Source: Candidatus Electrothrix sp. GW3-4 (GTDB lineage: Bacteria > Desulfobacterota > Desulfobulbia > Desulfobulbales > Desulfobulbaceae). Taken from it: DNA of 32,000 bases. Position 1 is the first letter of the stretch; every line of letters begins with the position of its first letter. The notes under the pieces are model-generated. The model made no database searches and had not been told where the DNA came from. It saw only the letters and a list, made by a program, of their open reading frames with translations. Positions 6,549 through 29,939 of the stretch are shown one piece after another. Both the position numbers and the translations under genes were made by a program. Location: NCBI RefSeq assembly GCF_037902255.1, contig NZ_CP147990.1:3990001-4022000 (forward strand), in the 5' to 3' direction.

Positions 6549-7650
6549 TCAGTGCAGCAGGCCCTGCAGCAAGATGTCTCGGCCAACGCTTTCTGTTGTT
6601 TGTTGTCTCAAAAGAAGCGGAACCTCTTCTTCTCCAATGCTATAGCCGCTAAGCACTGATGTGCCCAGCTCTCCGATGAAGTACGGCGCTGTAAAGAGAT
6701 AGACTTGATCCACCAGGCTTTTCTTGAGAAATGAACCATGGACAGCAGCCCCTCCTTCCACCAAGACAGAGGTAATATCGGCCTGCCCTAACCGGCGCAG
6801 GACCTGAGCAAGATCAAGCCCGCCATTTTGATCTCTATCTCCTCTGTAAATGATTGCCCCGGCCTGTTCCAGCTCCTTCTGTTTTTGCTCAGAGGCTTCG
6901 TGATCACAGAATATCCAGGTTGCTGCTGATGATTGCTGGGTCAGCATGCGGGCATCCGAAGGGAGCCGAAGTTGGCTATCCAAGATTACCCGGAGGGGGT
7001 CGCGCCCGCTCCCTTGCGCCAGCCGGGTAGTCAATGAAGGATCATCAATAAGGGCCGTGCCACTGCCTATAAGGAGAGCATCCAACTGATTCCGTAGTTG
7101 ATGCACTTTTTTCTTCGAGTCCGGTCCAGTGATGGCCCCGCCTTTCCCCTGTCTGCGGTTGATTTTTCCGTCCAGGCTCATGCCCGCCTTCATCACAACC
7201 CAGGGAAGACCAGTGGCAGAATGTTTGAGAAAGGGGTAATTAAGCTGTCGGCACTCCTGCTCAAGAACCCCCAACTTTACTAAAATGCCTTGAGATTGGA
7301 GAAAATCAGCACCTCCTGAGGCAACAGGATTGGAATCGGCCATCCCGATGACCACCCGACTGAGCCCTGCGGTGAGGATAGCCTGAGTACAGGGGGGTCT
7401 TTCCAGTATGATTGCAGGGTTCCAGAGTCACATAGATGGTCGCCCCTTGACAGCTCTTGCCCTTGCCAAGGGCATCTGCAATGGCGTTGACCTCGGCATG
7501 CGGGCTACCTGCCCGTCGATGATGACCCAGCCCTATGATCTGATCATCTCTGACAATGACGGCCCCAACGCAGGGATTAGGAGCTGTTCGCCCTAATCCC
7601 TTTTCCGCCTCCTTAAGGGCGAGACGCATGTATGCGCTATCAGAGCTCAT
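6549..7650 (-). pseudogene. ribD: Bifunctional riboflavin biosynthesis protein RibD (deaminase/reductase), interrupted by a frameshift
   Basis: Two ORFs, 7306-7650 and 6549-7355. The first carries the deaminase motifs HAEVNAI and LEPCNHTGKTP. The second carries VIGMADSNPVASGG followed by the reductase domain. Reading through the C6 run (G6 on plus strand, 7392-7397) with one C fewer gives TPCTQAILTAGLSRVVIGMAD, joining the two halves. Confidence 0.85.
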
Positions 7651-7669
7651 AGCCTAAAACATGACTAGC

Positions 7670-8128
7670 TTAGTGCTGGTTACCCAGAAAATGTTTGAGC
7701 TCATCCATAAACTCATTCACACCCTTGAACTGCCGATATACTGAAGCGAAACGGACATAGGCGACTTCATCCAGTTGGGGAAGTGTTTCCATGACCCACT
7801 CACCTAACTGAGAAGTAAAAATTTCTTTTCCGCCAGCATCTTGGAGCCTGTGCTCAATTCCGTCCACAAAACGGTCAATATCCTCCAAGCTCACTGGCCG
7901 TTTCTCGCAGGCCTTCTCCAAGCCAACAATCATCTTACCTCTATCCCATGCCTCGCGACGCCCATCTTTTTTCACCAGCATGGGCAGCATCATTTCAATA
8001 CGCTCATAGGTGGTGAAGCGCTGATTACAGGCCTCACAATGACGCCGTCTCCTGGTGATGGTTTTGTCCTTGTTCAGGCGGGAGTCAATGACCCGGTTGT
8101 CCAGCTGACCGCAATAGGGACATTTCAT
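7670..8128 (-). CDS. nrdR: Transcriptional repressor NrdR
   Basis: 152 aa. N-terminal zinc ribbon MKCPYCG...CEAC followed by an ATP-cone. Lies 19 nt upstream of ribD, a common pairing. Confidence 0.95.
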   Translation of the reverse strand: MKCPYCGQLDNRVIDSRLNKDKTITRRRRHCEACNQRFTTYERIEMMLPMLVKKDGRREAWDRGKMIVGLEKACEKRPVSLEDIDRFVDGIEHRLQDAGGKEIFTSQLGEWVMETLPQLDEVAYVRFASVYRQFKGVNEFMDELKHFLGNQH

Positions 8129-8179
8129 AGCTTGTGCAGAGTGGTTAGAAGAAAAGAGCGTGCCAGCGGCCCCACGCTG

Positions 8180-9433
8180 TTAGAGCGAATCGTCCCGGGT
8201 AATCTCCGGGTACAGAGGAACACGCTCACAAAGTCTCCGCACTTCCTGGCGTACCTGAGCTGCCTCCAATTCATCCGAGGTAAGCACACGATTAATCCAG
8301 TCGCCGATCATCACCATCTCAGGTTCTTTCAGGCCCCTAGTAGTAACCGATGGGGTGCCAATTCTGATGCCGCTGGTCACAAAACGGGATTGGGTATCAA
8401 AAGGAATAGCATTCTTATTCACTGTCAGGCCTGCGAGCTCCAGGCGTTCTTCAGCGTCTTTACCGGTAAGGTTCTTACTACTGAGGTCAATAAGAAGGAG
8501 ATGGTTATCTGTTCCACCAGATACGATACGGAAACCGTGTTCGGCCAAGCGGGCCGCCAAGGTAGCGGCATTGATCACAACCTGCTTCTGATATTGGCGG
8601 TACCCCTCAGTCATTGCCTCTTTAAAACTCACTGCCTTGGCAGCAATCACATGCACAAGCGGTCCACCCTGGATTCCTGGGAAGATATTAGAATCCAAGG
8701 CCTTGGCAAATTTTTTCTTGGCCAGGATCAAACCACCTCGCGGCCCACGTAGGGTCTTATGGGTCGTAGTGGTGACAAAATCGGCATAGGGGATCGGTGA
8801 AGGATGTACACCAGCAGCCACTAAACCAGCAATATGGGCCATATCCACCATGAAGAGCGCACCGATCTGATCCGCTATATGACGAAATCCCTCAAAATCA
8901 ATAACACGGGGATAGGCACTTGCTCCGGCCACAATCATCTTGGGTCGATTTTCAAAGGCGATGCGTTCTACTTCCGCCATATCAATGGTCTCTGTATCCC
9001 GCTTAACGCCATAAGAGATAAAATTAAACAGCTTGCCGGAAAAAGAGACGGTGGCTCCGTGGGTCAGGTGTCCACCATGCGCCAAGTCCATACCCAGGAC
9101 CTTGTCACCAGGCTTCAGGGTGGCAAAGTAAACGGCCATATTGGCCTGGCTTCCAGAGTGCGGTTGAACGTTGGCGTATTCGGCGTTGAACAGTTCCTTA
9201 GCGCGCTCACAGGCGAGAGTTTCTACAACATCGGCATGGTCACAGCCGCCATAATAACGTCTGTTGGGATAACCTTCTGCATATTTATTGGTAAAAATGG
9301 AGCCTTGAGCCTCCAGCACAGCCGGAGAAACAATATTCTCTGAAGCGATCAATTCCAGCTGATTGGCCTGACGCTCAAGTTCATATTGAATCTGTCCATA
9401 GATATCCGGGTCTGTCTCTTTTAGCGTTGCCAT
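8180..9433 (-). CDS. glyA: Serine hydroxymethyltransferase
   Basis: 417 aa. PLP-lysine motif [14 protein letters not shown] and overall SHMT pattern ([12 protein letters not shown]). Confidence 0.97.
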
Positions 9434-9535
9434 ACCTTTCGCCTAAAATATTTTATCGTTGTTTTAAAAAGAAAAAAACGGCAGTACCTTCAGGGCTGCT
9501 GCAAAATCTTGGTCAGAAAAGACAGCTGCCTTTCG

Positions 9536-9961
9536 TTAACTGAACATATCCAATCGCCGTTGATGCCTACCACCGACAAATGCTGTTTCCACCCAGGTCC
9601 TGACGATGTCCAAAGCGATTTCTGGCCCGATCACCCGCCCGCCGAGACAGAGTACATTGGAGTTGTTATGTTCCCGACTCATTCTCGCAGTAAAGGCCTC
9701 ATGGCAGAGCGCTGCCCGGATCTCCTTATATCGGTTGGCGGCAATGGACATACCGATACCGGTTCCGCAGACCAAGATCCCGCAGTCACAAGTCCCTGTA
9801 CGGACAGCCGTGCATACTTTCTCAGCAAAATCAGGGTAGTCAACAGAATCCAGGGAGTGACAGCCCACAGATTCAACCTCCTGCCCAAGTTCGCCCAGAA
9901 ATTGAACGATAAGCTCCTTTAGCTCAAAGCCCCCGTGGTCACTGCCTACTGCAATTTTCAT
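9536..9961 (-). CDS. rpiB: Ribose-5-phosphate isomerase B
   Basis: RpiB/LacAB pattern MKIAVGSDHGGFELKE and CGTGIGMSIAANR. I chose the start at the internal ATG (9959-9961), which has a GGAGA RBS. The longer ORF from 9994 would overlap the fabF stop. Confidence 0.9.
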   Translation of the reverse strand: MKIAVGSDHGGFELKELIVQFLGELGQEVESVGCHSLDSVDYPDFAEKVCTAVRTGTCDCGILVCGTGIGMSIAANRYKEIRAALCHEAFTARMSREHNNSNVLCLGGRVIGPEIALDIVRTWVETAFVGGRHQRRLDMFS

Positions 9962-9983
9962 CTTTTTTCTCCAAGACAGCTCT

Positions 9984-11237
9984 TCAGCCTTCAAACCGTT
10001 TCATGATGATGACCCCGTTGGTCCCACCAAAGCCAAAAGAATTGGACATTGCCGCCCGAATTTTCATCTCCCGCGCTGTCTTAGGTACATAGTCGAGATC
10101 ACAGTTCGGATCCGGATTTTCCAGATTGACCGTCGGGGGAATACATTGATGATGCAGAGTCAAGGCGGTAAATGCCGCCTCAATGCCACCGGCTCCACCA
10201 AGCATATGGCCAGTCATGGATTTGGTGGAGCTAACAGCCAGCTTATAGGCATGGTCACCGAAGACGGCCTTGATCGCGGCGGTTTCGCAGCGATCGTTGA
10301 GCGGCGTCGAGGTCCCATGGGCATTGATGTAATCAATCTCATCAGGATGCATACCTGCGTTCCGCAGAGCCATCTTCATACAACGAACCGCACCTTCTCC
10401 GTTTTCCGGTGGGGCAGCTATATGGTAGGCATCACTCGATTGCCCATAGCCGACCATCTCAGCCAGGATCTCAGCTCCACGGGCACGAGCAAACTCAAAC
10501 TCCTCCAGGATAATCATGCCAGCGCCTTCAGCGATAATAAAACCGTCCCGATCTTTATCAAAAGGACGTGAAGCATGCTCAGGATCATCATTGCGGGTGG
10601 ACAAGGCCTTCATTGCTGCAAAACCGCCTACCGCCAAAGGACAGATAACTGATTCTGTTCCGCCCGTGACAGCGATATCGCAATCGCCGAACGCAATATG
10701 TCGATAGGCTTCCCCGACAGCATGCGTTCCAGCTGCGCAGGCAGTGGACAAGGCGAGGTTCGGTCCTTTGGCATTCAGATGCATGGAGATATGACCAGAT
10801 GGCATATTCGGGATCATCCTGGGCACCAGAAAAGGAGTAATCCGGCGTGGCCCCCTGTTCAGCAGAACACTATGGTACTCCTCAATAGTCGGCAGTCCAC
10901 CCATGCCACATCCGGTAATAACCCCGATACGCTCGGCCATTTCCTCGGTAATCTCTAAGCCGCTGGCCTTGACAGCCATGTCAGCGGCAGCAATACCGTA
11001 TTGGACAAAATGATCCAGATGTTTTGCCTGTTTTTTTTCAAACCAAAGGTCAGGGGTAAAATCCTTGACCTCAGCGGCAATCTGCGAGGTATGTGCAGAT
11101 GCATCGAAACGAGTGATAGGACCAATACCGCTCTGCCCGTTTACCAGCCCCTGCCATGTCTTGTCCGTTCCGGTTCCGAGCGGGGTGACTAATCCGACGC
11201 CAGTGACGACAACCCGACGCTGTGCATTCTTGACCAT
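9984..11237 (-). CDS. fabF: Beta-ketoacyl-ACP synthase II
   Basis: 417 aa. Active-site Cys in LSTACAAGTHA, and the His residues in INAHGTSTP and KSMTGHMLGGAGG. Confidence 0.95.
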   Translation of the reverse strand: MVKNAQRRVVVTGVGLVTPLGTGTDKTWQGLVNGQSGIGPITRFDASAHTSQIAAEVKDFTPDLWFEKKQAKHLDHFVQYGIAAADMAVKASGLEITEEMAERIGVITGCGMGGLPTIEEYHSVLLNRGPRRITPFLVPRMIPNMPSGHISMHLNAKGPNLALSTACAAGTHAVGEAYRHIAFGDCDIAVTGGTESVICPLAVGGFAAMKALSTRNDDPEHASRPFDKDRDGFIIAEGAGMIILEEFEFARARGAEILAEMVGYGQSSDAYHIAAPPENGEGAVRCMKMALRNAGMHPDEIDYINAHGTSTPLNDRCETAAIKAVFGDHAYKLAVSSTKSMTGHMLGGAGGIEAAFTALTLHHQCIPPTVNLENPDPNCDLDYVPKTAREMKIRAAMSNSFGFGGTNGVIIMKRFEG

Positions 11238-11429
11238 GCTAAAATAATCTGTAAATTTCCCTGTAATCTAGGCGTCAGCCTACACTTGCAGCTCTGAGCC
11301 CTAAAAATGGACCGATGGTCGCACAGTACGCTGACACCTTATCCCTGCTGGCACGATGCTCAAGAGTCGTCTGTTGGAACTCCCTAACGTTATTTATTAT
11401 CCAACGGACATATCTCTTCTATCAAGCCA

Positions 11430-11663
11430 TTATCCCTGGATTTTATCAACGTAGTCTATCGCATCCTGGACAGTGACGATCTTCTCGGCATCTTCGTCAG
11501 GAATCTCGACATCAAACTCTTCTTCCATAGCCATGATCAGTTCAACCAGATCTAGAGAATCCGCACCGAGATCATCAACAAAGGACGCTCCAGAAACTAT
11601 TTTTTCCTTATCAACACTGAGCTGTTCTTCAATAATATCGATCATTTTGTCTGCAACTGCCAT
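11430..11663 (-). CDS. acpP: Acyl carrier protein
   Basis: 77 aa from the internal ATG at 11661-11663, with an AGGAG RBS 8 nt upstream. Phosphopantetheine site [13 protein letters not shown]. The 118-aa ORF extension is not ACP-like. Confidence 0.95.
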
Positions 11664-11888
11664 TCTTTTTCTCCTGAATTGGTTATATGTAGCAAAAGAG
11701 TTCGAGAACACCCGTTCCGAACGATAGTTTCCACATTTGATTTTTTTATGAAAGTTCCGGGTAAGGCATTCAAGTCGCTCAACCAACTTTCATCTCTTCT
11801 GAGCCACTCGCCATTTTTCATTTTTTATTATTCGGCCCACAAAGCCGAAATGACGGGAGATTAAAGGAAAATCGCCTGCTTCAGCAGG

Positions 11889-12638
11889 TCAATTTCCCAT
11901 GTACATCCCGCCATTCACATGCAGGGTCTGCCCGGTCATATATCCGCTCGCGTCCGCAGCCAAATACCCCACTGCTCCGGCTACATCCTCGGGGGTTCCG
12001 AGTGTACCCAGTGGGATCTCTGCCTTAATTTTTTCTTGAATATCTTCTGGAAGATCAGCGGTCATATCAGTAACGATATACCCTGGCGCCACGCAGTTCA
12101 CCGTGACCTGTCGTCCGGCCAGCTCCCTGGCCATGGACTTGGTCAGGCCGACCAGACCGGCCTTGGCTGAGGCGTAATTCACCTGCCCAGCATTGCCGAG
12201 AAAACCGATCACTGAGGTGATATTAATGATCCTGCCCCAACGTTTTTTCATCATACCGCGCATCGCCGCCTTGGAACAGGTAAAGGCACCTTTGAGATTG
12301 GTGTTCAGGACCGCATCCCAGTCATCATCCTTCATTCGGGCCATGAGTCCGTCTCTGGTGATGCCAGCATTGTTGACCAAAATATCCACTCCACCCTGCT
12401 CAGCCGTGATCGCCTTGAGAGCTTTTCCAACGGCCTTGCTGTCAGCGACGTCAAAGCCACTAATAAAACCTGTACCGCCTTGACCAGTGATCTCAGCTAA
12501 CACCTCTTCAGCCGCAGTAGAATTACTTACATAGTTAATGCCAACTGTCGCGCCTTGGCCAGCCAACTGCTGACAGATGGCCCTGCCGATTCCCCGACTT
12601 CCACCAGTTACTAATGCTATTTTTCCATCAAGCGACAT
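11889..12638 (-). CDS. fabG: 3-oxoacyl-ACP reductase
   Basis: 249 aa SDR. Motifs TGGSRGIG, NNAGI, YASAKAG, and the C-terminal GQTLHVNGGMYM typical of FabG. Its start overlaps the etfA stop by 11 nt. Confidence 0.93.
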   Translation of the reverse strand: MSLDGKIALVTGGSRGIGRAICQQLAGQGATVGINYVSNSTAAEEVLAEITGQGGTGFISGFDVADSKAVGKALKAITAEQGGVDILVNNAGITRDGLMARMKDDDWDAVLNTNLKGAFTCSKAAMRGMMKKRWGRIINITSVIGFLGNAGQVNYASAKAGLVGLTKSMARELAGRQVTVNCVAPGYIVTDMTADLPEDIQEKIKAEIPLGTLGTPEDVAGAVGYLAADASGYMTGQTLHVNGGMYMGN

Positions 12639-13827
12639 GACCGCGCTGCTCCTTTATCTTTTGGGTGAGCAAGGGAAGGATTTCAAACAGGTCTCCGACC
12701 AGCCCATAGGTGGCAAGGTCAAAGATCGGTGCCTTTTCATCCCGGTTGATAGCCACAATGGTTTCGGCAGATTGCATCCCCACAGTATGCTGGACAGCAC
12801 CAGAGATGCCGCAGGCGATGTAGAGTTTGGGACTCACCGTCTTCCCGGTTTGACCGACCTGACAGGGATAGCCGATCCAGCCAGCATCCACCGCAGCTCT
12901 GGAAGCGGAAACCGTCCCGTTCAGTTCACCGGCAAGATCCCGAAGCAAGGCAAAACCCTTTTCATCTGCCAGACCCCGACCACCGCTGACCAGGACCTCT
13001 GATTCGCGAATATTGCCCTGCTCTTCCTCACAGATCACCGTTTCCAGGACCTCAACCTTGGAGGTCAAGAGCTCAGGTGAGAGCTCCACCGCCATCACCT
13101 CACCAGTTCGGGAGGCATCGACCTCAACCGGGGCCATAACATTGGGTCGCACCGTGGCCATCTGCGGACGAGAACGGGGGCACTCAATGGTTGCCATAAT
13201 ATTACCGCCAAAGGCCGGTCTGGTCTGGAGGAGAACCCCGTCTTCAGAACGAATGGCCAGATCGGTACAGTCCGCCGTCAGGCCAGCGCCCAAGGCAGTC
13301 GCCACTTGCGGGATGACCGAACGACCAATGGCGGTCGCGCCAGCCAGCAGGACCTCGGGCTTATATTCGCTAATTAGGTGCTCCAGGACCTTGCCGTAGA
13401 CATCTTCACGGTACTGCGCCAAGGCCGGGTCATCAGCCAGCAAGACCTTATCCGCACCTGCCGTAATCAGCTCATCCGTCTTATCAGCCAAATCTGCCCC
13501 GAGCAAGACCGCTGTCAGAGGCGCCTGCCGCTGATCAGCTAATTGCCTGCCAATGCCCAGGAGCTCAAAGGCCACCGGGGCAATCTTCCCGTGCCTGGCT
13601 TCGGCAAAGACCCAGATGCCTGACCAGGCTGAGAGATCGGTCTGTTCCTTTTTCTCTGCCCCTTCAATGCACAGGGCGCCGACCTCGCAACTATCCACGC
13701 AGGAGCCGCAGAGGGTACAGGTGCCGCCTACCACGGCAATGCCGTCTTCAACGGTGATGGCACCAAAGGCACAGTTGGCCTCGCAAACGCCGCAGCCAAT
13801 GCATGCTTCGCTGTTAACAATAAGCAT
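12628..13827 (-). CDS. etfA: Electron transfer flavoprotein alpha subunit with N-terminal 2x[4Fe-4S] ferredoxin domain
   Basis: 399 aa. N-terminus has CIGCGVCEANC and CTLCGSCVDSC. The C-terminus has the EtfA FAD-binding pattern (LYIACGISGAVQHTVGM, VAINRDEKAPIF). Its ATG shares one base with the etfB stop (TAATG). Confidence 0.88.
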   Translation of the reverse strand: MLIVNSEACIGCGVCEANCAFGAITVEDGIAVVGGTCTLCGSCVDSCEVGALCIEGAEKKEQTDLSAWSGIWVFAEARHGKIAPVAFELLGIGRQLADQRQAPLTAVLLGADLADKTDELITAGADKVLLADDPALAQYREDVYGKVLEHLISEYKPEVLLAGATAIGRSVIPQVATALGAGLTADCTDLAIRSEDGVLLQTRPAFGGNIMATIECPRSRPQMATVRPNVMAPVEVDASRTGEVMAVELSPELLTSKVEVLETVICEEEQGNIRESEVLVSGGRGLADEKGFALLRDLAGELNGTVSASRAAVDAGWIGYPCQVGQTGKTVSPKLYIACGISGAVQHTVGMQSAETIVAINRDEKAPIFDLATYGLVGDLFEILPLLTQKIKEQRGHVA

Positions 13828-14606
13828 TATAAATATTCCTTGATCTCGTCCACCAATTGCTCAACCTGCTCTTCAACGGATCCTGAAAACATCCTCCGCT
13901 CCCCACGCGGTTCAGGAGAAAAGACCTTTGCTACCTGAGTGGGTGAACCAGCCAAACCGATGCACTCCTCCTCTGCGCCGATATCTGCGGCCGACAGCAC
14001 CTTGATCTCCGCCTTTTTCGCCTTCATTTTTCCCTTTAAGGAAGAAACCCGTGGTTCGTTGATATCCTTGACCACAGTGAGCAAGGCTGGAAGGGGGACT
14101 TGCACCACATCATAACCGTCATCCATCATCCGTTCCACCTGAATGGTGCTCTCGCTCACCTCGCGGGTTTTCTGGACGCAGGTGACATAGGGCAAATTCA
14201 ACTGATATGCCAATCCAGGACCAACCTGAGCTGTATCACCGTCAATGGCCTGTTTTCCACACAGAATCAGATCAGCATTTCCTACCGTCTCAACCGCTTT
14301 TGCCAAGGTGTAAGATGTCGCCCAAGTATCAGCCCCGGCAAAGGCCCGGTCAGACACCAAGACCCCTTCATCGGCACCGCAGGCAATAGCCTCCCGCAGG
14401 ACCTCTTCTGCCTGAGGCGGCCCCATAGACAGGACCGTGACCTTGCCACCGACTTTTTCTTTTACACTGACCCCCTCTTCCAAGGCATGACGATCAAAAG
14501 GGTTCATGATCGACTCCACGCTCTCCCTGGACATGGTATTGGTCTTAGGGTCCAGCCGGACATCCTTGGCATCAGGCACCTGTTTTATACAGACGACGAT
14601 ATTCAT
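13827..14606 (-). CDS. etfB: Electron transfer flavoprotein beta subunit
   Basis: 259 aa. Motifs MNIVVCIKQVPD and CGKQAIDGDTAQVGP, and overall EtfB/FixA pattern. Confidence 0.9.
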   Translation of the reverse strand: MNIVVCIKQVPDAKDVRLDPKTNTMSRESVESIMNPFDRHALEEGVSVKEKVGGKVTVLSMGPPQAEEVLREAIACGADEGVLVSDRAFAGADTWATSYTLAKAVETVGNADLILCGKQAIDGDTAQVGPGLAYQLNLPYVTCVQKTREVSESTIQVERMMDDGYDVVQVPLPALLTVVKDINEPRVSSLKGKMKAKKAEIKVLSAADIGAEEECIGLAGSPTQVAKVFSPEPRGERRMFSGSVEEQVEQLVDEIKEYL

Positions 14607-14635
14607 ATCATTTATTTATTGTTCCGGTAAAGAAG

Positions 14636-14665
14636 CGTAAGGGCACGGCGCGCCGTGCCCTTACG
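14636..14665. repeat. Perfect 30-nt GC-rich palindrome in the ACAD-etfB intergenic gap
   Basis: cgtaagggcacggcg|cgccgtgcccttacg is fully self-complementary with a GGCGCGCC centre. It sits in the 85-nt gap between the ACAD stop (14692) and the etfB start (14606). Confidence 0.85.
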
Positions 14666-14691
14666 GCTCCGCAAAAACGAGAATCTCAAAT

Positions 14692-15840
14692 TCAGGCGTA
14701 TTCCCTGTTCAGTTCCTGACCAATCACATTGCGCTGAATCTGATTGGTTCCCTCGTAAATCTGGAGGATCTTGGCATCCCGCATCATCTTCTCCACCGGA
14801 TACTCCTTCATGTACCCGTAACCACCCATGACCTGCACGGCATCCGTGGTCACCTTCATGGCCATATCCGTGGCAAAAACCTTACACATGGAGGAGCCCT
14901 TACTCATATCCTTGGGATGGGCATCAATATGGCGGGCTGTAGCATAGACTAAACTTCTGGCGGCCTCAACCTGGATCGCCATGTCTGCCAGCATATGCTG
15001 CACGGCCTGAAAACTAATGATCGGTTTATCAAACTGGACCCGCTGCTTGGCATAGACCGCTGCCTCATCAAGGGCAGCCTGTCCCAGCCCAACAGCAAGG
15101 ACAGCAATACTGGGGCGAGAAACATCAAGGGTCTTCATCACCGTAATAAATCCGGTGCCCTTTTTCCCTATCAGACGATCCTTGGGAATACGGCAATCTT
15201 TCATGATCAACTCACGGGTGGCCGAGGCCCGGATACCCATCTTATCTTCTTTTTTCCCGTAGGAAAACCCTGGGTCCCCGTCCTCAACGACAAAGAGCGA
15301 GGCACCGCGAATCCCCTTTTCCGGGTTGGTCAAGGCAAGAATCGTGTAAATTTGAGCCTCGCCCCCGTTGGTGATCCACTGCTTGGTGCCATTCAGGACC
15401 CATTCATCACCGTCAAGCACTGCGGTTGTTTTGATACCGGCTGCATCAGAACCGGCACCGGCCTCGGTCAGGCCGAAGGCGGCCCAGCGCGATCCCTCAG
15501 CAAGAGAGGGCAGATACTTTTCTTTCATTTCTTTGCTGCCCGCAATCAGCACAGGCAAGATGCCCAAGCCGTTGGCAGCAAAACTGGTCGCCACACCTAC
15601 ACAACCCCGGGCCAACTCTTCCAGGGCCAAAACAGTTTCAAAACAGCCACCGCCGAAACCGCCATATTCCTCAGGAACAAAGATGGAAAACAGGTCGGCC
15701 TTCGCGATATCCCGCAGGACATCACCGGCAAATTCATTTCGTTCATCAAGTTCAGCCCGCTTGGGAATAATCTTTTCCTCCGAAAGCTCACGGGCGGTAT
15801 CCTTGATCATTTGTTGTTCTTCAGTCAGAAAATAATCCAC
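14692..15840 (-). CDS. Acyl-CoA dehydrogenase family protein (short/butyryl-chain-like)
   Basis: 382 aa with a GTG start and AAGGAG 6 nt upstream. ACAD pattern: FGLTEAGAGSDA, WITNGG, and the C-terminal catalytic-base motif IYEGTNQIQR. Confidence 0.9.
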   Translation of the reverse strand: MDYFLTEEQQMIKDTARELSEEKIIPKRAELDERNEFAGDVLRDIAKADLFSIFVPEEYGGFGGGCFETVLALEELARGCVGVATSFAANGLGILPVLIAGSKEMKEKYLPSLAEGSRWAAFGLTEAGAGSDAAGIKTTAVLDGDEWVLNGTKQWITNGGEAQIYTILALTNPEKGIRGASLFVVEDGDPGFSYGKKEDKMGIRASATRELIMKDCRIPKDRLIGKKGTGFITVMKTLDVSRPSIAVLAVGLGQAALDEAAVYAKQRVQFDKPIISFQAVQHMLADMAIQVEAARSLVYATARHIDAHPKDMSKGSSMCKVFATDMAMKVTTDAVQVMGGYGYMKEYPVEKMMRDAKILQIYEGTNQIQRNVIGQELNREYA

Positions 15841-15866
15841 CTTTTTCTCCTTTTTCTCTGGCTATC

Positions 15867-16841
15867 TTACCAACGCATGAGCATGGAACCCCAAGTGAAC
15901 CCTCCGCCAAAGGAACAGAACAACACAAGATCGCCTTGTTCGAGACGATTCTGTCTATTGGCTTCATCAAGGGCTATTGGAATGCTTGCTGCGGAAGTAT
16001 TACCATATTTGTCGACGTTTATGAATACCTTTTCCTGATCAGCGCCGAGCCTTTCTGTTAACTTACTGAGAATTCTTATATTTGCTTGATGGGGAATGAT
16101 CAAAGAAATGTCATTAATGGCGATCTGCTGACGATTGAGCAGATCAAGAACAGCGTTTTCCATGGCCCGAACAGCGTACTTGAACACATCACGGCCGGTC
16201 ATCTGCATGAAACAGCCGTTACGCTCTTCGATGAGAAGATCTGGGTTACGACTGGCCGGACTGTCCATGTAAAGCAGCTTCCAGAGGCTGCCGTCGGAAA
16301 AGAGATTGCAGTCTACGATGCCTCGTTGCTCAGCGCCGGTGAGTACGCAGGCTCCAGCTCCGTCGCCGAACAGGATACAGGTATTACGATCCTGCCAGTT
16401 CATTCGGGCAGACAGGGTTTCTGAGCCGATCAACAAGACCTTCATCTCCGGACGTGCAGCAATATATTTCCCAGCCATATCAAGGCCATAAAGAAAACCA
16501 GAGCAAGCTGCGTTGAGATCAAAGGCAAAGGCCTTTTTCGCCCCGATTTCGGCCTGGACAAAGCAGGCGCAGGAGGGCATCATCATATGGGGCGTTAAGG
16601 TGGCAACAGCGACCAGATCAATCTCTTCAGCACGGACTCCGGCTGATGCCAGAGCTTTTTCTGCTGCCTGGGTTGCCAGTTGGTAGTTTTGCTCACCCTT
16701 GCCAGCGATACGCCGGGTCCGGATACCGGTACGGGCGGTAATCCATTCATCCGAGGTATCCACCATCTGTTCGAGGTCATCGTTTGTCAGCACCCGACGA
16801 GGTAAACAGGAACCGGTTCCAAGGACAACAGCACGGTGCAT
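15867..16841 (-). CDS. fabH: Beta-ketoacyl-ACP synthase III
   Basis: 324 aa. Active-site Cys in NAACSGFLYG, plus PHQANIRI and GNTSAASIP. Confidence 0.95.
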   Translation of the reverse strand: MHRAVVLGTGSCLPRRVLTNDDLEQMVDTSDEWITARTGIRTRRIAGKGEQNYQLATQAAEKALASAGVRAEEIDLVAVATLTPHMMMPSCACFVQAEIGAKKAFAFDLNAACSGFLYGLDMAGKYIAARPEMKVLLIGSETLSARMNWQDRNTCILFGDGAGACVLTGAEQRGIVDCNLFSDGSLWKLLYMDSPASRNPDLLIEERNGCFMQMTGRDVFKYAVRAMENAVLDLLNRQQIAINDISLIIPHQANIRILSKLTERLGADQEKVFINVDKYGNTSAASIPIALDEANRQNRLEQGDLVLFCSFGGGFTWGSMLMRW

Positions 16842-16860
16842 AAATCTTTCCTCTTAACAG

Positions 16861-17871
16861 CTACGCGGCGATATACTGTTGTAATGATTGGACAATAGAA
16901 TCGTTCACTTTATTTTCCACCAACTTAGCCGCCTCACCTATGGCGTTACAAATGGCTACCGATGACGATGAACCGTGGCAGATAATACCAATTCCATTGA
17001 TCCCGAGCAGGGGGGCGCCGCCGTATTCTGCATAATCCACCCGTTTGCGAAATGCGGCAAAGGCCTTGCGGATAAGGAGGTAGCCAACTTTTGCCTGGAT
17101 AGACTTCATAATTTCGTCTTTCAGCATCTGCATGGCCGCTTCAGCAAGCCCCTCACTGATTTTAAGGGAGATATTACCAACAAAGCCATCGCAAACCACG
17201 ACATCAAGCTCGCCGCTATAGACGTCACGCCCTTCCACATTACCGACAAAATTGAGATTACTAGCACTTAGCAATTCATGGGTTTCCTTGATCAAGGCAT
17301 TTCCCTTACCCGGTTCAGAGCCAATACTGAGCAAGCCAACACGAGGATTTTTCCTGTTTTGCAGAAGGGCATAACAGGAGGAAGCCATAACCGCGAATTG
17401 GAAGAGATGCTGAGGACGGCAGTCCACGTTGGCACCGATATCCATCAGCATGACCGGAGCCTTACGCGTCGGAAACAGACTGGCAATACCTGGGCGGGAA
17501 ACCCCTTCCAACCGCCCAAGCTTCCGTATGGCTGCCGCCATGGTTGCCCCGGAATGCCCCGCTGACACCACGGCATCTGCTTGCCCGTTTTTCACCAGGT
17601 CAAAGCCGCGCATTATGGTCGAGTCCTTTTTCTTGCGGATGGCTTCCACAGGTGACTCTTCCATCGTTACTGTCTCAGGGGCATGCTCAATAAGCAGTCG
17701 TCCAGCGACCCTACCAGAGTCACTCCGTTGCGCAACCCGTTCTTTCAGCAGATTTTCAGGCCCGAGCAAGATTATCGAAAGCGCCTTGTTTCTCCTGAGA
17801 GCAAGAAGAGCTCCGTCAATCAGGAATTCAGGGCCCTGATCACCGCCCATTGCATCAAGGGCTATCTTCAC
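16861..17871 (-). CDS. plsX: Phosphate acyltransferase PlsX
   Basis: 336 aa. MKIALDAMGGD N-terminus and the PlsX family pattern. Canonical position between rpmF and fabH. Confidence 0.95.
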   Translation of the reverse strand: MKIALDAMGGDQGPEFLIDGALLALRRNKALSIILLGPENLLKERVAQRSDSGRVAGRLLIEHAPETVTMEESPVEAIRKKKDSTIMRGFDLVKNGQADAVVSAGHSGATMAAAIRKLGRLEGVSRPGIASLFPTRKAPVMLMDIGANVDCRPQHLFQFAVMASSCYALLQNRKNPRVGLLSIGSEPGKGNALIKETHELLSASNLNFVGNVEGRDVYSGELDVVVCDGFVGNISLKISEGLAEAAMQMLKDEIMKSIQAKVGYLLIRKAFAAFRKRVDYAEYGGAPLLGINGIGIICHGSSSSVAICNAIGEAAKLVENKVNDSIVQSLQQYIAA

Positions 17872-17879
17872 AGGTCAGC

Positions 17880-18068
17880 CTAGTCCAGTTCGTCTCCGAA
17901 CTGATAAAAGGTTCTTCCTTTGTATGTCCCGCAGCCCGAACATAACTGATGCGGCATTTTTGGCTCACCGCATTCCGGGCAACGGCCTACGCTGGGACCG
18001 GTTAAAAAATCGTGCGCTCTCCGTTTTCGGGTTCGTGAGTGTGAATGTCGTCTCTTTGGTAATGCCAT
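17880..18068 (-). CDS. rpmF: 50S ribosomal protein L32
   Basis: 62 aa. MALPKRRHSHSRTRKRRAHD plus a CxxC...CxxC zinc ribbon. AGGAGGG RBS. Confidence 0.95.
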   Translation of the reverse strand: MALPKRRHSHSRTRKRRAHDFLTGPSVGRCPECGEPKMPHQLCSGCGTYKGRTFYQFGDELD

Positions 18069-18155
18069 GATATCCCTCCTGAAGGAAAAAACAGTAATCT
18101 TCCTGAATTGGTATTCAGATTATTTTATTATAATAGTGTTCGTGCAAGGCAGAAC

Positions 18156-18671
18156 TCAATCTTTTTTCAGCGATGCCAGGACTGCAAAAGGGGAATTGCT
18201 CGTTTCGTTAGCACAGGAACACTCTCCAGTATTCAAATTTACCCCGCACCGCGTACACAGCCCTTTACACTCTGGAGAGCATATCTTTTTTTCCGGCAAC
18301 ACCAGATAGAGCTGTTGTCGAAGGAGATCCGGGATGTCGACCACGGGCTCGTCCACCTGAATAATATCGAGATAGGCCCTTGTGCATTCGAGCTCTTTTA
18401 TGTGGCCGCTCTCTTCGCTTTCCACATCCAGTATATAATGAAAGGCGACCTGGACAGCAAAACAGTAGTCAGTAAGACAACGGTCGCAGGCCAGTAGGAG
18501 CTCGGTATCCAAGTTTCCGCGTACTTCAACTCGTCTATCCGTTTTTCGCGTCAGCGTCAGCTCTGCATGTACTGGCGCATTTTTCTGGAGATCTGTCTGA
18601 GCAAGCCAATCATCATCTGTAATAGCATAACGATTCCCTACTATAGAAATATCTGTAAATTGAACTTTCAT
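18156..18671 (-). CDS. yceD: YceD/DUF177 family protein
   Basis: 171 aa from the internal ATG (18669-18671, MKVQFTDI...). C-terminal Cys cluster CSPECKGLCTRCGVNLNTGECSC. Conserved position upstream of rpmF. Confidence 0.8.
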   Translation of the reverse strand: MKVQFTDISIVGNRYAITDDDWLAQTDLQKNAPVHAELTLTRKTDRRVEVRGNLDTELLLACDRCLTDYCFAVQVAFHYILDVESEESGHIKELECTRAYLDIIQVDEPVVDIPDLLRQQLYLVLPEKKICSPECKGLCTRCGVNLNTGECSCANETSNSPFAVLASLKKD

Positions 18672-18725
18672 TTTGATGCCCGGCAAACCGCCTGTAAACG
18701 AACACGAGTTGTTGCAAGAATAGCC

Positions 18726-18755
18726 ACCATACACAAAAATAACAAGCTATGACAA
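18726..18755 (-). promoter_or_regulatory. Candidate sigma70 promoter for the yceD-rpmF-plsX-fab operon
   Basis: On the minus strand: TTGTCA (18750-18755), 18-nt spacer, TATGGT (18726-18731). Lies about 50 nt upstream of the preferred yceD start. Weak match. Confidence 0.3.
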
Positions 18756-18858
18756 GAAAAAAAGTACAGAATCGCGGGAGGAGTGTAAAAAGAAGGAAAA
18801 GAGTTGCCTCCTCCACCCTCCTTCGTCAAGTTGGTGGCAACGCCATCTGTCACAAGGC

Positions 18859-18886
18859 TTGACAGAAATGATAGATTAAGGATAAC
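18859..18886 (+). promoter_or_regulatory. Candidate sigma70 promoter for the mqnD operon
   Basis: Perfect TTGACA (18859-18864), 16-nt spacer, GATAAC (18881-18886). Lies about 110 nt upstream of the mqnD ATG. Confidence 0.35.
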
Positions 18887-18995
18887 CTGTTAGAGTCAAG
18901 AGGACGGTGAAGGAAACACCAGAGCAAGAAAAAGCAGGTATTACGCAAAAAAACTAAAAATATTTCAGCGGAACATTCACTGAGACATTCTATAT

Positions 18996-19838
18996 ATGGC
19001 CCTCCCGCTTAGCATAGGCTACTCACCATGCCCCAATGACACCTTTATCTTCTACGCCCTGATGCACGGAAAAATCCCTCTCCGGCATATTCAATTTACT
19101 CCACCGGTGCTTAAAGACGTTGAAACCCTCAATAGATGGGCCATCAACTCCAGGCTTGACGTGACCAAGGTATCCTTGCATGCCCTGGGACATGTGCAGG
19201 ACAGCTACACCATGCTCAATGCGGGTGCAGCTCTTGGTCGAGGCTGCGGCCCTCTTCTGATAACACAACCGGGGCAGAAAACAGCCCCTTCCTCCTGGAG
19301 GATCGCTATCCCAGGAAAATACACAACCGCTGCCCTTCTCCTTACCCTCTTCCTTCCCGAACCCAGCAAGTTGATAGCCATGCCCTTTGATACCATCATG
19401 GATGCCATCAAAGAGGGCAAGGTAGATGCCGGAGTGATTATCCACGAAAGCCGTTTCACCTATCAAAATTACGGACTTGTCTGCGTGCAGGACCTAGGCG
19501 AGTGGTGGGAGAAGGAAACCGGACTTCCCATTCCTCTAGGCTGTATCGCAGCCCGCAAGAGCCTTGGCCAGCAAACCATCAAAGAGAGCGAGGAGGCCAT
19601 AGCAGCCAGCCTCCGCTGGGCCTCTGCCCATCCAGAGACCTGCACCGCCTATATCAAACAATATGCGCAGGAGCTGGATGACCGGGTGATTTCTGAGCAT
19701 ATCAAACTCTATGTTAATAATTTTTCTATAGACCTTACCGACACAGGGCGGGCCGCTGTGCAGGAACTGCTTCGCCGAGGAAAAAACGCCGGAATTTTCA
19801 CGGGGGCTTCTGCTCCCGGAGTTCAATCGTACGTATGA
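18996..19838 (+). CDS. mqnD: 1,4-dihydroxy-6-naphthoate synthase (futalosine pathway)
   Basis: 280 aa. GYSPCPNDTFIFYALMHGKI N-terminus and periplasmic-binding-like fold pattern typical of MqnD. Its stop overlaps the next start (ATGA). Confidence 0.85.
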   Translation: MALPLSIGYSPCPNDTFIFYALMHGKIPLRHIQFTPPVLKDVETLNRWAINSRLDVTKVSLHALGHVQDSYTMLNAGAALGRGCGPLLITQPGQKTAPSSWRIAIPGKYTTAALLLTLFLPEPSKLIAMPFDTIMDAIKEGKVDAGVIIHESRFTYQNYGLVCVQDLGEWWEKETGLPIPLGCIAARKSLGQQTIKESEEAIAASLRWASAHPETCTAYIKQYAQELDDRVISEHIKLYVNNFSIDLTDTGRAAVQELLRRGKNAGIFTGASAPGVQSYV

Positions 19839-29375: not shown

Positions 29376-29432
29376 TCTAACATACCTGGAGTTTTGCACG
29401 AACTCCTGAATCTTCAACATGCTACCGGTACA

Positions 29433-29909: not shown

Positions 29910-29939
29910 CCCCTTCACGTACCTTCCCCCTTCACCTTC

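What the first reader, a model, noticed from the sequence alone, without database searches (positions are those of the whole stretch)
12628..15840. Acyl-CoA dehydrogenase + EtfBA module wired into the core fatty-acid-synthesis operon between fabH and fabG
The minus-strand order is yceD-rpmF-plsX-fabH-ACAD-etfB-etfA-fabG-acpP-fabF. The textbook cluster is plsX-fabH-fabD-fabG-acpP-fabF. Here the slot between fabH and fabG holds a 382-aa ACAD (catalytic-base motif IYEGTNQIQR) plus EtfB and EtfA. The junctions argue for co-expression rather than chance adjacency. The fabH stop lies 26 nt from the ACAD GTG start, with AAGGAG 6 nt upstream of that start. The etfB stop and etfA start share one base (TAATG). 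The etfA stop overlaps the fabG start by 11 nt. No FabI/FabK/FabL/FabV-like enoyl-ACP reductase, FabZ/FabA or FabD is visible anywhere in the 32 kb. Bcd-EtfAB and CarCDE complexes are established examples of ACAD chemistry running in the reductive direction (enoyl-thioester reduction). That leads to two inferences: (a) an ETF-dependent enoyl-ACP/CoA reductase serving FAS II, or (b) an acyl-ACP dehydrogenase that back-tracks to introduce a double bond for anaerobic unsaturated fatty-acid synthesis, conceptually like H. pylori FabX. As far as I know neither is an established FAS II component. I cannot verify novelty without a search.
Basis: partly seen in the sequence, partly recalled or inferred. 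Interest (0 to 1): 0.8.

Follow-up and report, generated by a model that had tools for sequence, protein, structure and literature searches.

The report
Flavoprotein reductase module in fatty-acid operon
A cable bacterium carries an acyl-thioester dehydrogenase and its electron-transfer flavoprotein partner inside its core fatty-acid-synthesis operon; the same linkage recurs in anaerobes of at least six phyla, so the module is probably an undescribed, possibly energy-conserving, way to do the last reduction step of fatty-acid synthesis.

Summary
On the minus strand the order is yceD-rpmF-plsX-fabH-ACAD-etfB-etfA-fabG-acpP-fabF, with the junctions as described.

The ETF is closest to CarDE of the electron-bifurcating caffeyl-CoA reductase. 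The ACAD has the canonical catalytic glutamate and is about 50% identical to true butyryl-CoA dehydrogenases. It reaches no curated family cut-off.

The linkage is not chance. Of 65 informative loci holding orthologues (60-96% identity), 52 carry fab genes on the same strand. These span Desulfobulbales, other Desulfobacterota, Nitrospirota, Margulisiibacteriota, Omnitrophota, Dehalococcoidia and others, in several different gene orders. Unlinked orthologues sit among housekeeping genes, not butyrate genes. Margulisbacterial operons hold this module together with a FabX-like Fe-S protein. That fills the unsaturated-fatty-acid role and leaves the enoyl-reductase role open.

Best reading (about 0.5): a CarCDE-like, ETF-dependent enoyl-ACP reductase of FAS II, possibly electron-bifurcating. 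Two things are untested: whether these genomes lack FabI/K/L/V, and whether the substrate is ACP or CoA. Ten literature searches found no description of this arrangement.

The parts
18156..18734 (-). yceD, first gene of the conserved cluster
   Evidence: Pfam YceD, 89 bits. Same position in relatives.
17880..18068 (-). rpmF (ribosomal protein L32)
   Evidence: ORF. Conserved 50-98% in relatives. Pfam Ribosomal_L32p at the same position in D. propionicus.
16861..17871 (-). plsX (phosphate acyltransferase)
   Evidence: Pfam FA_synthesis, 359 bits.
15867..16841 (-). fabH (ketoacyl-ACP synthase III)
   Evidence: NCBIfam PRK09352, 427 bits against a cut-off of 249. Its stop lies 26 nt before the ACAD start.
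14692..15840 (-). Acyl-thioester dehydrogenase (ACAD fold, 382 aa, GTG start); proposed enoyl-reducing subunit
   Evidence: Three ACAD Pfam domains. Best NCBIfam hit is AcrC at 425 bits, below its cut-off of 640. Best PDB hits score 375-390 bits and include C. difficile Bcd 5ol2_C. Glu363 aligns with MCAD Glu376. 60-96% identical orthologues are fab-linked in many phyla.
14636..14665 (-). GC-rich hairpin (13 bp, 9 GC pairs, tail CUUCUUUACC) in the ACAD-etfB gap; possible attenuator or mRNA-stability element
   Evidence: Strongest terminator-like site in 7500-19500. The 101-nt gap stretch containing it (14600-14700) folds at -32.7 kcal/mol, z = -3.15. A hairpin of different sequence sits at the same place in Ca. 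E. marina. D. propionicus has only a 14-nt gap and no hairpin.
13827..14606 (-). etfB (small ETF subunit, bifurcating type)
   Evidence: Pfam ETF. Best PDB hit is CarD 6fah_B at 257 bits, followed by four other bifurcating ETFs at 211-236 bits. Non-bifurcating ETFs score 95-105 bits.
12628..13827 (-). etfA (large ETF subunit) with a fused N-terminal ferredoxin domain
   Evidence: Pfam ETF + ETF_alpha + Fer4. Best PDB hit is CarE 6fah_A at 426 bits, aligned over residues 4-391 including the ferredoxin domain. TAATG junction with etfB and an 11-nt overlap with fabG.
13642..13827 (-). Ferredoxin domain of EtfA (two CxxCxxCxxxC motifs, residues ~1-62)
   Evidence: Sequence CIGCGVCEANC ... CTLCGSCVDSC. 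Aligns with the CarE Fe-S domain. Both motifs are present in 44 of 46 orthologous EtfA proteins.
11889..12638 (-). fabG (3-oxoacyl-ACP reductase)
   Evidence: NCBIfam FabG, 339 bits against a cut-off of 332; TIGR01830, 331 against 298.
11430..11663 (-). acpP (acyl carrier protein, 77 aa from the internal ATG)
   Evidence: ORF, sequence MAVADK...DSLD. 69-95% identical in Desulfobulbales relatives (the 69-90% range leaves out the near-identical L004). Pfam PP-binding at the same position in D. propionicus.
9984..11237 (-). fabF (ketoacyl-ACP synthase II)
   Evidence: Pfam ketoacyl-synt N and C domains.

Best explanation
The ACAD, EtfB and ferredoxin-domain EtfA form a CarCDE/Bcd-EtfAB-like flavoprotein complex that serves type II fatty-acid synthesis as its enoyl-thioester reductase.

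Proposed electron path, by analogy with Bcd-EtfAB and CarCDE:
1. NADH reduces the FAD in EtfB.
2. One electron passes through the EtfA FAD to the ACAD FAD. After two rounds the ACAD reduces trans-2-enoyl-ACP to acyl-ACP, with Glu363 as the proton relay.
3. The other electron leaves through the two [4Fe-4S] clusters of the EtfA N-terminal domain to ferredoxin or flavodoxin.

Each elongation cycle would then return low-potential electrons instead of wasting the large driving force of the enoyl reduction.

Shown here: the gene content, the family relationships, the Fe-S domain, and the conserved operon linkage.
Inferred: the ACP substrate, the reductive direction, the bifurcation, and whether this is the only enoyl reductase or a second one.
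For: 1. Operon membership with tight or overlapping junctions.

2. Conserved linkage.
- The order is identical in all 21 Desulfobulbales loci, including D. propionicus DSM 2032.
- 52 of 65 informative loci are fab-linked, and in 42 of those 52 the ACAD lies within 300 nt of a fab gene.
- Different orders keep the linkage: plsX-fabH-ACAD-etfBA-fabD-fabG in Nitrospirota and Margulisbacteria, rpmF-ACAD-etfBA-fabG in Desulfobacca, and fabG-acpP-fabF-ACAD-etfBA in Omnitrophota and Makaraimicrobium.

3. The operons encode KS III, KS II, KR, ACP and often MAT, but no known enoyl reductase.

4. The ETF is of the type known to drive reductive ACAD chemistry. CarE scores 426 bits and CarD 257 bits. All five top PDB hits are bifurcating ETFs, and canonical ETFs score less than half as much. 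The Fe-S domain is kept in 44 of 46 modules.

5. Margulisbacterial operons hold the module together with an NMO protein. Its best PDB hits are H. pylori FabX. It has a 4-Cys motif over the FabX cluster ligands, and it scores only 180 bits against the FabK cut-off of 453. By analogy with H. pylori (FabX plus FabI), the ACAD-ETF takes the reductase role.

6. Unlinked orthologues have housekeeping neighbours, not hbd/crt/thl genes. One of them (L027) has fabD right after etfA.

7. Within Desulfobulbales the ACAD is the best-conserved enzyme of the operon: median 77% identity, against 65-70% for PlsX, FabH, FabG and FabF, and 80% for AcpP. Caveat: the loci were chosen by ACAD similarity.

8. Weak hints on the substrate.
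- The family lacks the one-residue helix-E insertion of true Bcds. It has Ala/Ser/Gly and Ala at the positions of MCAD pocket-floor residues Q95 and E99.
- Six family-specific conserved basic residues stand where CoA-dependent reference enzymes have acidic or neutral ones. This would suit an acidic partner such as ACP.
Against: - No biochemical or genetic data exist.
- Whole genomes could not be scanned, so FabI/K/L/V may well be encoded elsewhere. In that case the module would at most be a second reductase.
- The ACAD is only moderately diverged from ordinary CoA-dependent Bcds (48-59% identity). It keeps the pantetheine-contacting residues, which serve CoA and ACP alike. Nothing shows ACP specificity.
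- It scores far below ACAD-family enzymes known to act on carrier-protein substrates: MbtN 54 against a cut-off of 700, RedW 245 against 650.
- If the Margulisbacterial NMO protein is in fact an Fe-S-type FabK, the reductase slot there is taken.
- Six fab-linked ACADs have no adjacent ETF, and a Nitrospiraceae subclade has the ACAD alone away from fab genes.
- Not every ETF of this type bifurcates. From general knowledge, C. propionicum acryloyl-CoA reductase does not.
- A terminator-like hairpin separates the ACAD from etfB.
Confidence: 0.5

Rival explanations
1. The complex runs oxidatively on acyl-ACP. It would dehydrogenate a medium-chain acyl-ACP to the trans-2-enoyl form, and perhaps isomerise it to cis-3, to start anaerobic unsaturated fatty-acid synthesis. 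This would be a FabX-like backtracking route built on an ACAD fold.
For: - ACAD chemistry is natively a dehydrogenation, and (from general knowledge) ACADs have side isomerase activity.
- From general knowledge, Desulfobulbaceae make abundant monounsaturated fatty acids, and no FabA/FabM-type gene is visible in the window.
- Operon linkage to FAS II fits this reading as well as the reductase reading.
Against: - The ETF is of the NADH-linked bifurcating type. Running it backwards would consume reduced ferredoxin for a minor flux.
- Margulisbacterial operons already hold a FabX-like Fe-S NMO protein next to the module, which makes a second backtracking enzyme redundant.
- Very high conservation and translational coupling inside the core cycle genes suggest a stoichiometric role in the cycle.
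- The pocket-floor residues are small, which does not suggest a C10-specific ruler.
Confidence: 0.12
2. The module is a Bcd/AcrC-like enoyl-CoA reductase acting on CoA thioesters. Its tie to fatty-acid synthesis is indirect. It might supply butyryl- or propionyl-CoA primers to FabH, or act as an NADH/ferredoxin redox valve co-regulated with lipid synthesis.
For: - The nearest curated models are CoA enzymes: AcrC 425 bits and cyclohexane-1-carbonyl-CoA dehydrogenase 371 bits.
- It is 48-59% identical to genuine Bcds.
- It sits directly after fabH, which takes acyl-CoA primers.
- From general knowledge, Desulfobulbus makes odd-chain fatty acids from propionyl-CoA.
- Stand-alone ACAD-etfBA triads exist in Clostridia, Actinomycetota and Spirochaetes.
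Against: - No thiolase, hydroxyacyl-CoA dehydrogenase, crotonase or lactoyl/acryloyl-CoA pathway gene accompanies the module in any locus checked.
- All CoA-enzyme equivalog cut-offs are missed by a wide margin.
- In Omnitrophota the module follows fabF and is not next to fabH.
- Primer supply would not explain linkage in six phyla with different fatty-acid profiles.
Confidence: 0.2
3. The adjacency is accidental or a selfish insertion: an ordinary catabolic ACAD-ETF cassette that landed in the operon and has no role in lipid synthesis.
For: - The etfA stretch has a somewhat higher G+C (0.58) than its neighbours.
- The module can tolerate insertions: a 1.2-kb insert lies between etfB and etfA in Ca. 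E. marina.
Against: - The linkage is kept in 52 of 65 loci across phyla and through several rearrangements.
- Within Desulfobulbales the ACAD tree groups loci by their taxon labels, so the module looks vertically inherited there.
- The coding junctions overlap.
- The ACAD is more conserved than the Fab enzymes.
Confidence: 0.02

Closest known systems
CarCDE, the electron-bifurcating caffeyl-CoA reductase-Etf complex of Acetobacterium woodii (PDB 6FAH)
   Same: Same three-subunit architecture: an ACAD, a small ETF subunit and a large ETF subunit with an N-terminal two-[4Fe-4S] ferredoxin domain. EtfA and EtfB have CarE and CarD as their best solved relatives, at 426 and 257 bits.
   Different: The ACAD is nearer to Bcd/SCAD-type enzymes (375-390 bits) than to CarC (302 bits). 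The genomic setting is the FAS II operon, not a phenylacrylate respiration cluster. The substrate is presumably an aliphatic enoyl-ACP, which is untested.
Bcd-EtfAB, the electron-bifurcating butyryl-CoA dehydrogenase complex of Clostridium difficile and Acidaminococcus fermentans (PDB 5OL2, 4KPU, 4L1F)
   Same: ACAD 48-50% identical. Same catalytic Glu and FAD scaffold. Bifurcating-type ETF. Well established reductive direction (PMC5691135).
   Different: - The Bcd-associated EtfA proteins lack the ferredoxin domain: their alignments start at query residue 70.
- True Bcds have a one-residue insertion in helix E that this family lacks.
- This family has Trp where Bcd has the Phe155 that bridges the flavins.
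- It is not found with hbd/crt/thl genes.
Known FAS II enoyl-ACP reductases: FabI, FabL and FabV (SDR fold) and FabK (NMO/TIM-barrel flavoprotein)
   Same: The proposed reaction (trans-2-enoyl-ACP to acyl-ACP) and residence among fab genes. From general knowledge, fabK sits in the Firmicute fab operon.
   Different: The fold and cofactor system are unrelated: an ACAD fold plus a three-flavin, two-cluster electron path. It would use two NADH and reduce ferredoxin rather than take a simple hydride from NAD(P)H. No sequence similarity.
FabX of Helicobacter pylori, the backtracking decanoyl-ACP dehydrogenase/isomerase (PDB 7E1Q-S; PMC8626469)
   Same: A flavoenzyme with Fe-S assistance acting on the C2-C3 bond of acyl-ACP within FAS II.
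   Different: FabX is an NMO-family FMN protein, not an ACAD. A FabX-like protein co-occurs with the module in Margulisbacterial operons, so the two are probably complementary and not equivalent.
AcrABC acryloyl-CoA reductase of Clostridium propionicum (NCBIfam NF042972, NF042971, NF042970)
   Same: Best-scoring curated models for the ACAD and EtfA, and the second-best for EtfB (425, 349 and 253 bits; EtfB scores higher against the flavo_sub_EftB model, 320 bits). It is an ACAD-ETF complex that works reductively.
   Different: All three scores are far below the cut-offs (640, 475, 600). There is no lactate/acrylate pathway context.
ACAD-family dehydrogenases acting on carrier-protein thioesters in secondary metabolism (MbtN, RedW/PigA/AnaB, TcsD)
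   Same: They show that the ACAD fold can accept phosphopantetheine-tethered substrates on carrier proteins.
   Different: They are distant from this ACAD: MbtN 54 bits, RedW 245, PigA 232; PDB 4irn 187 bits and 6cxt 198 bits. They act oxidatively in dedicated pathways and have no bifurcating ETF.

Membership tests
Bifurcating ACAD-ETF complexes (Bcd-EtfAB / CarCDE type) | ACAD subunit with the FAD scaffold and a catalytic glutamate in the YEG motif | tested here: met
   Three ACAD Pfam domains. Tyr362-Glu363-Gly364 align with MCAD Y375-E376-G377. These positions are invariant (E, G) or nearly so (Y, 78 of 82) across the 82 family members.
Bifurcating ACAD-ETF complexes (Bcd-EtfAB / CarCDE type) | ETF of the two-FAD, NADH-oxidising (bifurcating) group rather than the AMP-containing canonical group | tested here: met
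   At sequence level only. The five best PDB matches of both subunits are bifurcating ETFs (EtfB 211-257 bits, EtfA 275-426 bits). Canonical ETFs score 95-105 and 131-169 bits. FAD content was not measured.
Bifurcating ACAD-ETF complexes (Bcd-EtfAB / CarCDE type) | CarE-type N-terminal ferredoxin domain with two [4Fe-4S] motifs on the large ETF subunit | tested here: met
   Two CxxCxxCxxxC motifs align with CarE residues 5-60. They are present in 44 of 46 orthologues.
Bifurcating ACAD-ETF complexes (Bcd-EtfAB / CarCDE type) | NADH-dependent reduction of ferredoxin coupled to enoyl-thioester reduction | not testable with these tools
   Needs anaerobic enzymology.
Butyryl-CoA dehydrogenase proper (butyrate fermentation / beta-oxidation) | Encoded with thiolase, 3-hydroxybutyryl-CoA dehydrogenase and crotonase, or with other beta-oxidation genes | tested here: not met
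   None of these genes is in the window, in D. propionicus or in the sampled related loci.
Butyryl-CoA dehydrogenase proper (butyrate fermentation / beta-oxidation) | Bcd-type helix-E insertion, as seen in 5OL2_C and 4L1F_A | tested here: not met
   The insertion is absent from the window protein and from all 19 family members displayed. Only two reference Bcds were compared.
AcrABC acryloyl-CoA reductase | Score at or above the NCBIfam equivalog cut-offs | tested here: not met
   425 against 640, 253 against 475, 349 against 600.
Known enoyl-ACP reductase families (FabI/FabL/FabV SDR; FabK NMO) | SDR or NMO/TIM-barrel fold | tested here: not met
   The fold is ACAD. No similarity to FabI or FabK probes. 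The module may work like an ENR but is not a member of these families.
Known enoyl-ACP reductase families (FabI/FabL/FabV SDR; FabK NMO) | Reduces trans-2-enoyl-ACP and is required for FAS II | not testable with these tools
   The only evidence is operon linkage in 52 of 65 loci.
FabX backtracking dehydrogenase/isomerase | NMO-family FMN enzyme with a C-terminal [4Fe-4S] subdomain | tested here: not met
   The ACAD does not have the NMO fold. A separate FabX-like protein exists in Margulisbacterial operons.
Carrier-protein-specific ACADs (MbtN, RedW/PigA, TcsD) | Membership of those equivalog families | tested here: not met
   MbtN 54 against 700, RedW 245 against 650, PigA 232 against 500.
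Carrier-protein-dependent enzyme in general | Basic docking surface for acidic ACP next to the active-site entrance | tested here: inconclusive
   Family-specific conserved basic residues K23, R28, K236, R303, K314 and K329 stand where reference enzymes have acidic or neutral residues. Their position in three dimensions was not examined.

The most novel reading that the evidence does not exclude
The module is a new class of enoyl-ACP reductase that is electron-bifurcating. [quoted passage not shown] Membrane-lipid synthesis would then feed low-potential electrons back into energy metabolism. In Margulisbacteria the module would work alongside an Fe-S FabX-like enzyme for unsaturated chains.
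Probability: 0.33. Interest if true: 0.9.

Novelty: new variant of a known kind. Interest (0 to 1): 0.78.

Why it matters
- Only a handful of enoyl-ACP reductase families are known, and they are major antibiotic targets. An ACAD-ETF-based reductase would add an unrelated class. From general knowledge it would presumably be insensitive to FabI inhibitors.
- It would be the first link between flavin-based electron bifurcation and an anabolic core pathway. That would change energy and redox budgets for organisms living near the thermodynamic limit, such as sulfate reducers, cable bacteria and candidate phyla.
- It would correct a widespread annotation. Sources name these proteins 'butyryl-CoA dehydrogenase', which wrongly suggests butyrate metabolism or beta-oxidation in metagenome-assembled genomes.
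- It bears on lipid hydrogen-isotope fractionation in anaerobes, which is currently discussed in terms of FabI (PMC4916218).
- It offers a candidate for genomes with no recognisable enoyl reductase; one such case, Caldithrix abyssi, is reported in PMC5317091, though no link to this module was tested.

Tried and rejected
Literature. All ten full-text searches found nothing that describes an ACAD-ETF module in a FAS II operon or an ETF-dependent or bifurcating enoyl-ACP reductase. They combined enoyl-ACP reductase, ETF, ACAD, fabH, plsX, Desulfobulbus, cable bacteria, bifurcation, and FabK/FabV/FabL. Targeted reading of seven papers also gave nothing on the arrangement itself. The cable-bacteria genome paper, the ETF classification paper and the sulfate-reducer energy-metabolism review are not held. 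Subscription journals are largely missing, so absence from this library is not proof of novelty.

Whole-genome check for FabI/K/L/V, FabD and FabZ. This was not possible. 

Search with the Margulisbacterial NMO protein. I hoped to see Desulfobulbaceae homologues. It returned only Margulisbacteria, Saganbacteria and WOR-1 relatives.

Exact-sequence look-up of the window ACAD. It is not on record. The organism is therefore inferred only from 96% identity to Ca. Electrothrix laxa and Ca. E. marina.

The 'module replaces fabD' idea. Rejected, because fabD follows etfA directly in other phyla.

Structure prediction and fold search. Not run. The tools give no coordinates, so they could not answer the open questions of pocket depth and the ACP docking surface.

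The neighbour-joining tree has no bootstrap support and includes no reference Bcd, CarC or AcrC sequences. The clade structure is indicative only.

Full report
**1. Observation**

On the minus strand the order is:
- yceD (18156-18734)
- rpmF (17880-18068)
- plsX (16861-17871)
- fabH (15867-16841)
- a 382-aa ACAD (14692-15840, GTG start, AAGGAG 6 nt upstream, 26 nt after the fabH stop)
- etfB (13827-14606)
- etfA (12628-13827, TAATG junction with etfB)
- fabG (11889-12638, its start overlapped by 11 nt of etfA)
- acpP (11430-11663)
- fabF (9984-11237)
- then rpiB, glyA and nrdR.

Pfam and NCBIfam support every name. Pfam scans of all other large ORFs of the window and tblastn probes found no FabI/K/L/V-like, FabZ/FabA or FabD gene in the 32 kb.

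- The first ~60 residues of EtfA form a ferredoxin domain with two CxxCxxCxxxC motifs.
- The 85-nt ACAD-etfB gap contains a 13-bp, 9-GC hairpin with the tail CUUCUUUACC. It is the strongest terminator-like site between 7500 and 19500. The 101-nt gap stretch containing it (14600-14700) folds at -32.7 kcal/mol, z = -3.15.

**2. What the proteins are**

- The organism is a cable bacterium. The ACAD is 96% identical to proteins of Ca. Electrothrix laxa and Ca. E. marina.
- The ACAD has the canonical catalytic Glu: Glu363 aligns with MCAD Glu376.
- Its best solved relatives are actinobacterial ACADs and the bifurcating Bcds of C. difficile and A. fermentans, at 361-390 bits and 48-50% identity.
- The best curated model is AcrC at 425 bits against a cut-off of 640. 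No equivalog cut-off is reached. Models for carrier-protein-specific ACADs score very low.
- EtfA and EtfB are closest to CarE and CarD of the caffeyl-CoA reductase complex (426 and 257 bits). The alignment covers the Fe-S domain.
- The next four PDB hits for each ETF subunit are all bifurcating ETFs. Canonical ETFs score less than half as much.
- The module is therefore a CarCDE-like three-subunit flavoprotein with a Bcd-like ACAD.

**3. Conservation of the linkage**

D. propionicus DSM 2032 has the identical order, yceD-rpmF-plsX-fabH-ACAD-etfB-etfA-fabG-acpP-fabF-rpiB-nrdR.

I scanned one genome per GTDB species with the ACAD and ran tblastn with the window's operon proteins against the 80 returned loci. 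The results:
- All 21 Desulfobulbales loci keep the window's order.
- Nitrospirota and Margulisbacteria have plsX-fabH-ACAD-etfB-etfA-fabD-fabG-acpP-(NMO)-fabF.
- Desulfobacca has rpmF-ACAD-etfBA-fabG-acpP-fabF.
- Omnitrophota and Ca. Makaraimicrobium have fabG-acpP-fabF-ACAD-etfB-etfA.
- A clade of Thermodesulfobacteriota and unclassified 'delta' MAGs has the ACAD between plsX or fabH and fabD or fabG, with no adjacent ETF.
- A Dehalococcoidia chromosome and an Actinomycetota MAG show looser linkage.

In numbers:
- 52 of 65 loci with informative flanks have fab genes on the same strand, and in 42 of those 52 the ACAD is within 300 nt of one.
- The Fe-S domain of EtfA is present in 44 of 46 modules.
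- Family members are 61-80% identical to each other across phyla, but 48-59% identical to characterised Bcds.

Linkage that survives several different rearrangements is strong evidence of functional coupling to FAS II.

Orthologues that are not fab-linked (a Clostridiaceae MAG, Actinomycetota, Spirochaetaceae, a Nitrospiraceae subclade) lie among housekeeping genes. None lies with thiolase, hbd or crt genes. One of them (L027) has fabD directly after etfA.

**4. Which function**

The operons encode both condensing enzymes, the ketoreductase, ACP and often the malonyl transferase. The dehydratase is usually elsewhere; from general knowledge it typically lies in the lpx cluster. The one cycle activity with no candidate in these operons is the enoyl reductase.

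ACAD-ETF complexes of exactly this ETF type carry out enoyl-thioester reduction with NADH and ferredoxin in strict anaerobes (PMC5691135). The organisms that carry the linked module are strict anaerobes.

A useful natural experiment comes from Margulisbacteria and Saganbacteria. Three divergent operons contain the module and also an NMO-family protein between acpP and fabF. For that NMO protein:
- It reaches only 180 bits on the FabK equivalog model, whose cut-off is 453.
- Its best solved relatives are the H. pylori FabX structures, at 143.6 bits, against 112-137 bits for FabKs.
- It carries a conserved CxxCxxxCxxxxC motif that aligns with the FabX [4Fe-4S] ligands C300, C304, C308 and C320.

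If the protein is FabX-like, the unsaturated-fatty-acid branch is covered and the ACAD-ETF takes the place FabI has in H. pylori. The FabX-versus-FabK call is close, however, and is not proven.

Other supporting observations are weaker:
- Within Desulfobulbales the ACAD is the most conserved enzyme of the operon: median 77% identity, against 65-70% for PlsX, FabH, FabG and FabF, and 80% for AcpP. The loci were chosen by ACAD similarity, which inflates this figure.
- The family lacks the one-residue helix-E insertion seen in both structurally characterised Bcds.
- It has Ala/Ser/Gly and Ala at the positions of MCAD Q95 and E99, the floor of the acyl pocket.
- Six basic residues (K23, R28, K236, R303, K314, K329) are conserved family-wide where MCAD and the two Bcds have acidic or neutral residues. 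This would suit docking of an acidic partner such as ACP, but their spatial position was not checked.

**5. Proposed mechanism**

Each step below is inferred from Bcd-EtfAB and CarCDE:
1. NADH reduces the EtfB flavin.
2. One electron goes through the EtfA flavin to the ACAD flavin. After two rounds this reduces trans-2-enoyl-ACP.
3. The other electron leaves through the two clusters of the EtfA N-terminal domain to ferredoxin or flavodoxin.

What is shown: gene content, homology, the Fe-S motifs and the operon linkage. What is inferred: substrate, direction, bifurcation and essentiality.

**6. Evidence against and rival readings**

- I could not examine whole genomes, so a conventional ENR may exist elsewhere. 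The module would then be a second reductase or something else.
- The ACAD is not far from CoA-dependent Bcds, and nothing demonstrates ACP specificity.
- The main rival (about 0.2) is a CoA-level role, such as primer supply to FabH or a co-regulated redox valve. It is weakened by the absence of any accompanying CoA-pathway genes and by operons where the module follows fabF.
- An oxidative, FabX-like role (about 0.12) is disfavoured by the ETF type and by the Margulisbacterial operons.
- Chance adjacency is effectively excluded.
- The hairpin between the ACAD and etfB may attenuate read-through, so the subunits may not be expressed equally. D. propionicus has no such gap. Ca. E. marina has a hairpin of different sequence at the same site.

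**7. Comparison with known systems and novelty**

The module belongs to the ACAD-plus-bifurcating-type-ETF kind, and CarCDE is the closest in architecture. It is not a member of any known ENR family, of FabX, of AcrABC, or of the carrier-protein-specific ACAD families. The defining features of each were tested and not met.

I found no description of the operon association or of an ETF-dependent enoyl-ACP reductase in ten full-text searches and seven targeted readings. The library lacks most subscription journals.

I classify the finding as a new variant of a known kind. The function is a well-motivated hypothesis.

Noticed in passing
window 14636-14665 (minus strand); L004 9157-9176: A stable GC-rich hairpin with a partial U tail sits in the ACAD-etfB gap. 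Ca. E. marina has a hairpin of different sequence at the same position, while D. propionicus has only a 14-nt gap. It may be an intra-operon attenuator or an mRNA-stability element specific to Electrothrix.
   Followed up: partly
L004 10039-11182 (Ca. Electrothrix marina): A 1.2-kb insertion splits etfB from etfA, which touch in the window (TAATG). It carries three small ORFs of 115, 81 and 136 aa. Judged by eye only, the first looks secreted and the other two look like an antitoxin/PIN-toxin pair. No family search was run on them.
   Followed up: no
L052 13197-14171; L084 10001-10957; L085 10001-10960: Margulisbacteria and Saganbacteria FAS II operons carry an NMO-family protein between acpP and fabF, with a conserved CxxCxxxCxxxxC motif. 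It is closer to H. pylori FabX than to FabK in PDB scores and far below the FabK cut-off. It is a candidate anaerobic FabX-like enzyme.
   Followed up: partly
L040, L061, L062, L073, L074, L078: A clade of fab-linked ACADs (Thermodesulfobacteriota and unclassified 'delta' MAGs) has no ETF genes next to the ACAD. The ACAD lies directly between plsX or fabH and fabD or fabG. Its redox partner is unknown.
   Followed up: no
L028, L030, L033, L035, L042, L043: In a Nitrospiraceae/Thermodesulfovibrionales subclade the orthologous ACAD stands alone. In the two loci whose neighbours were scanned (L030, L033) these are unrelated genes: a PilZ-domain gene, a LuxR-type regulator, a PPIase, a deacetylase and an aldolase. 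No fab or etf gene was found within about 8 kb in any of the six.
   Followed up: partly
window 6549-7650 (minus strand): ribD appears as two overlapping ORFs: the deaminase domain at 7306-7650 and RibD_C at 6549-7355. D. propionicus has a single 370-aa gene. This could be a frameshift, a sequencing error or a real split.
   Followed up: no
L084 12290-16588; L085 12202-16299: A very large ORF (1432 and 1365 aa) with no Pfam hit on record follows fabF directly in two Margulisbacterial operons.
   Followed up: no
window 5512-6504, 23559-23885, 27677-28687, 29355-29918: Four ORFs of 108-336 aa have no Pfam match at E <= 1e-4.
   Followed up: no
ACAD residues K23, R28, K236, R303, K314, K329 (window 14692-15840): These basic residues are conserved in 87-100% of 82 family members, where MCAD and two Bcds have acidic or neutral residues. 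Q154, R178 and M344 are also family-invariant and differ from the reference enzymes.
   Followed up: partly
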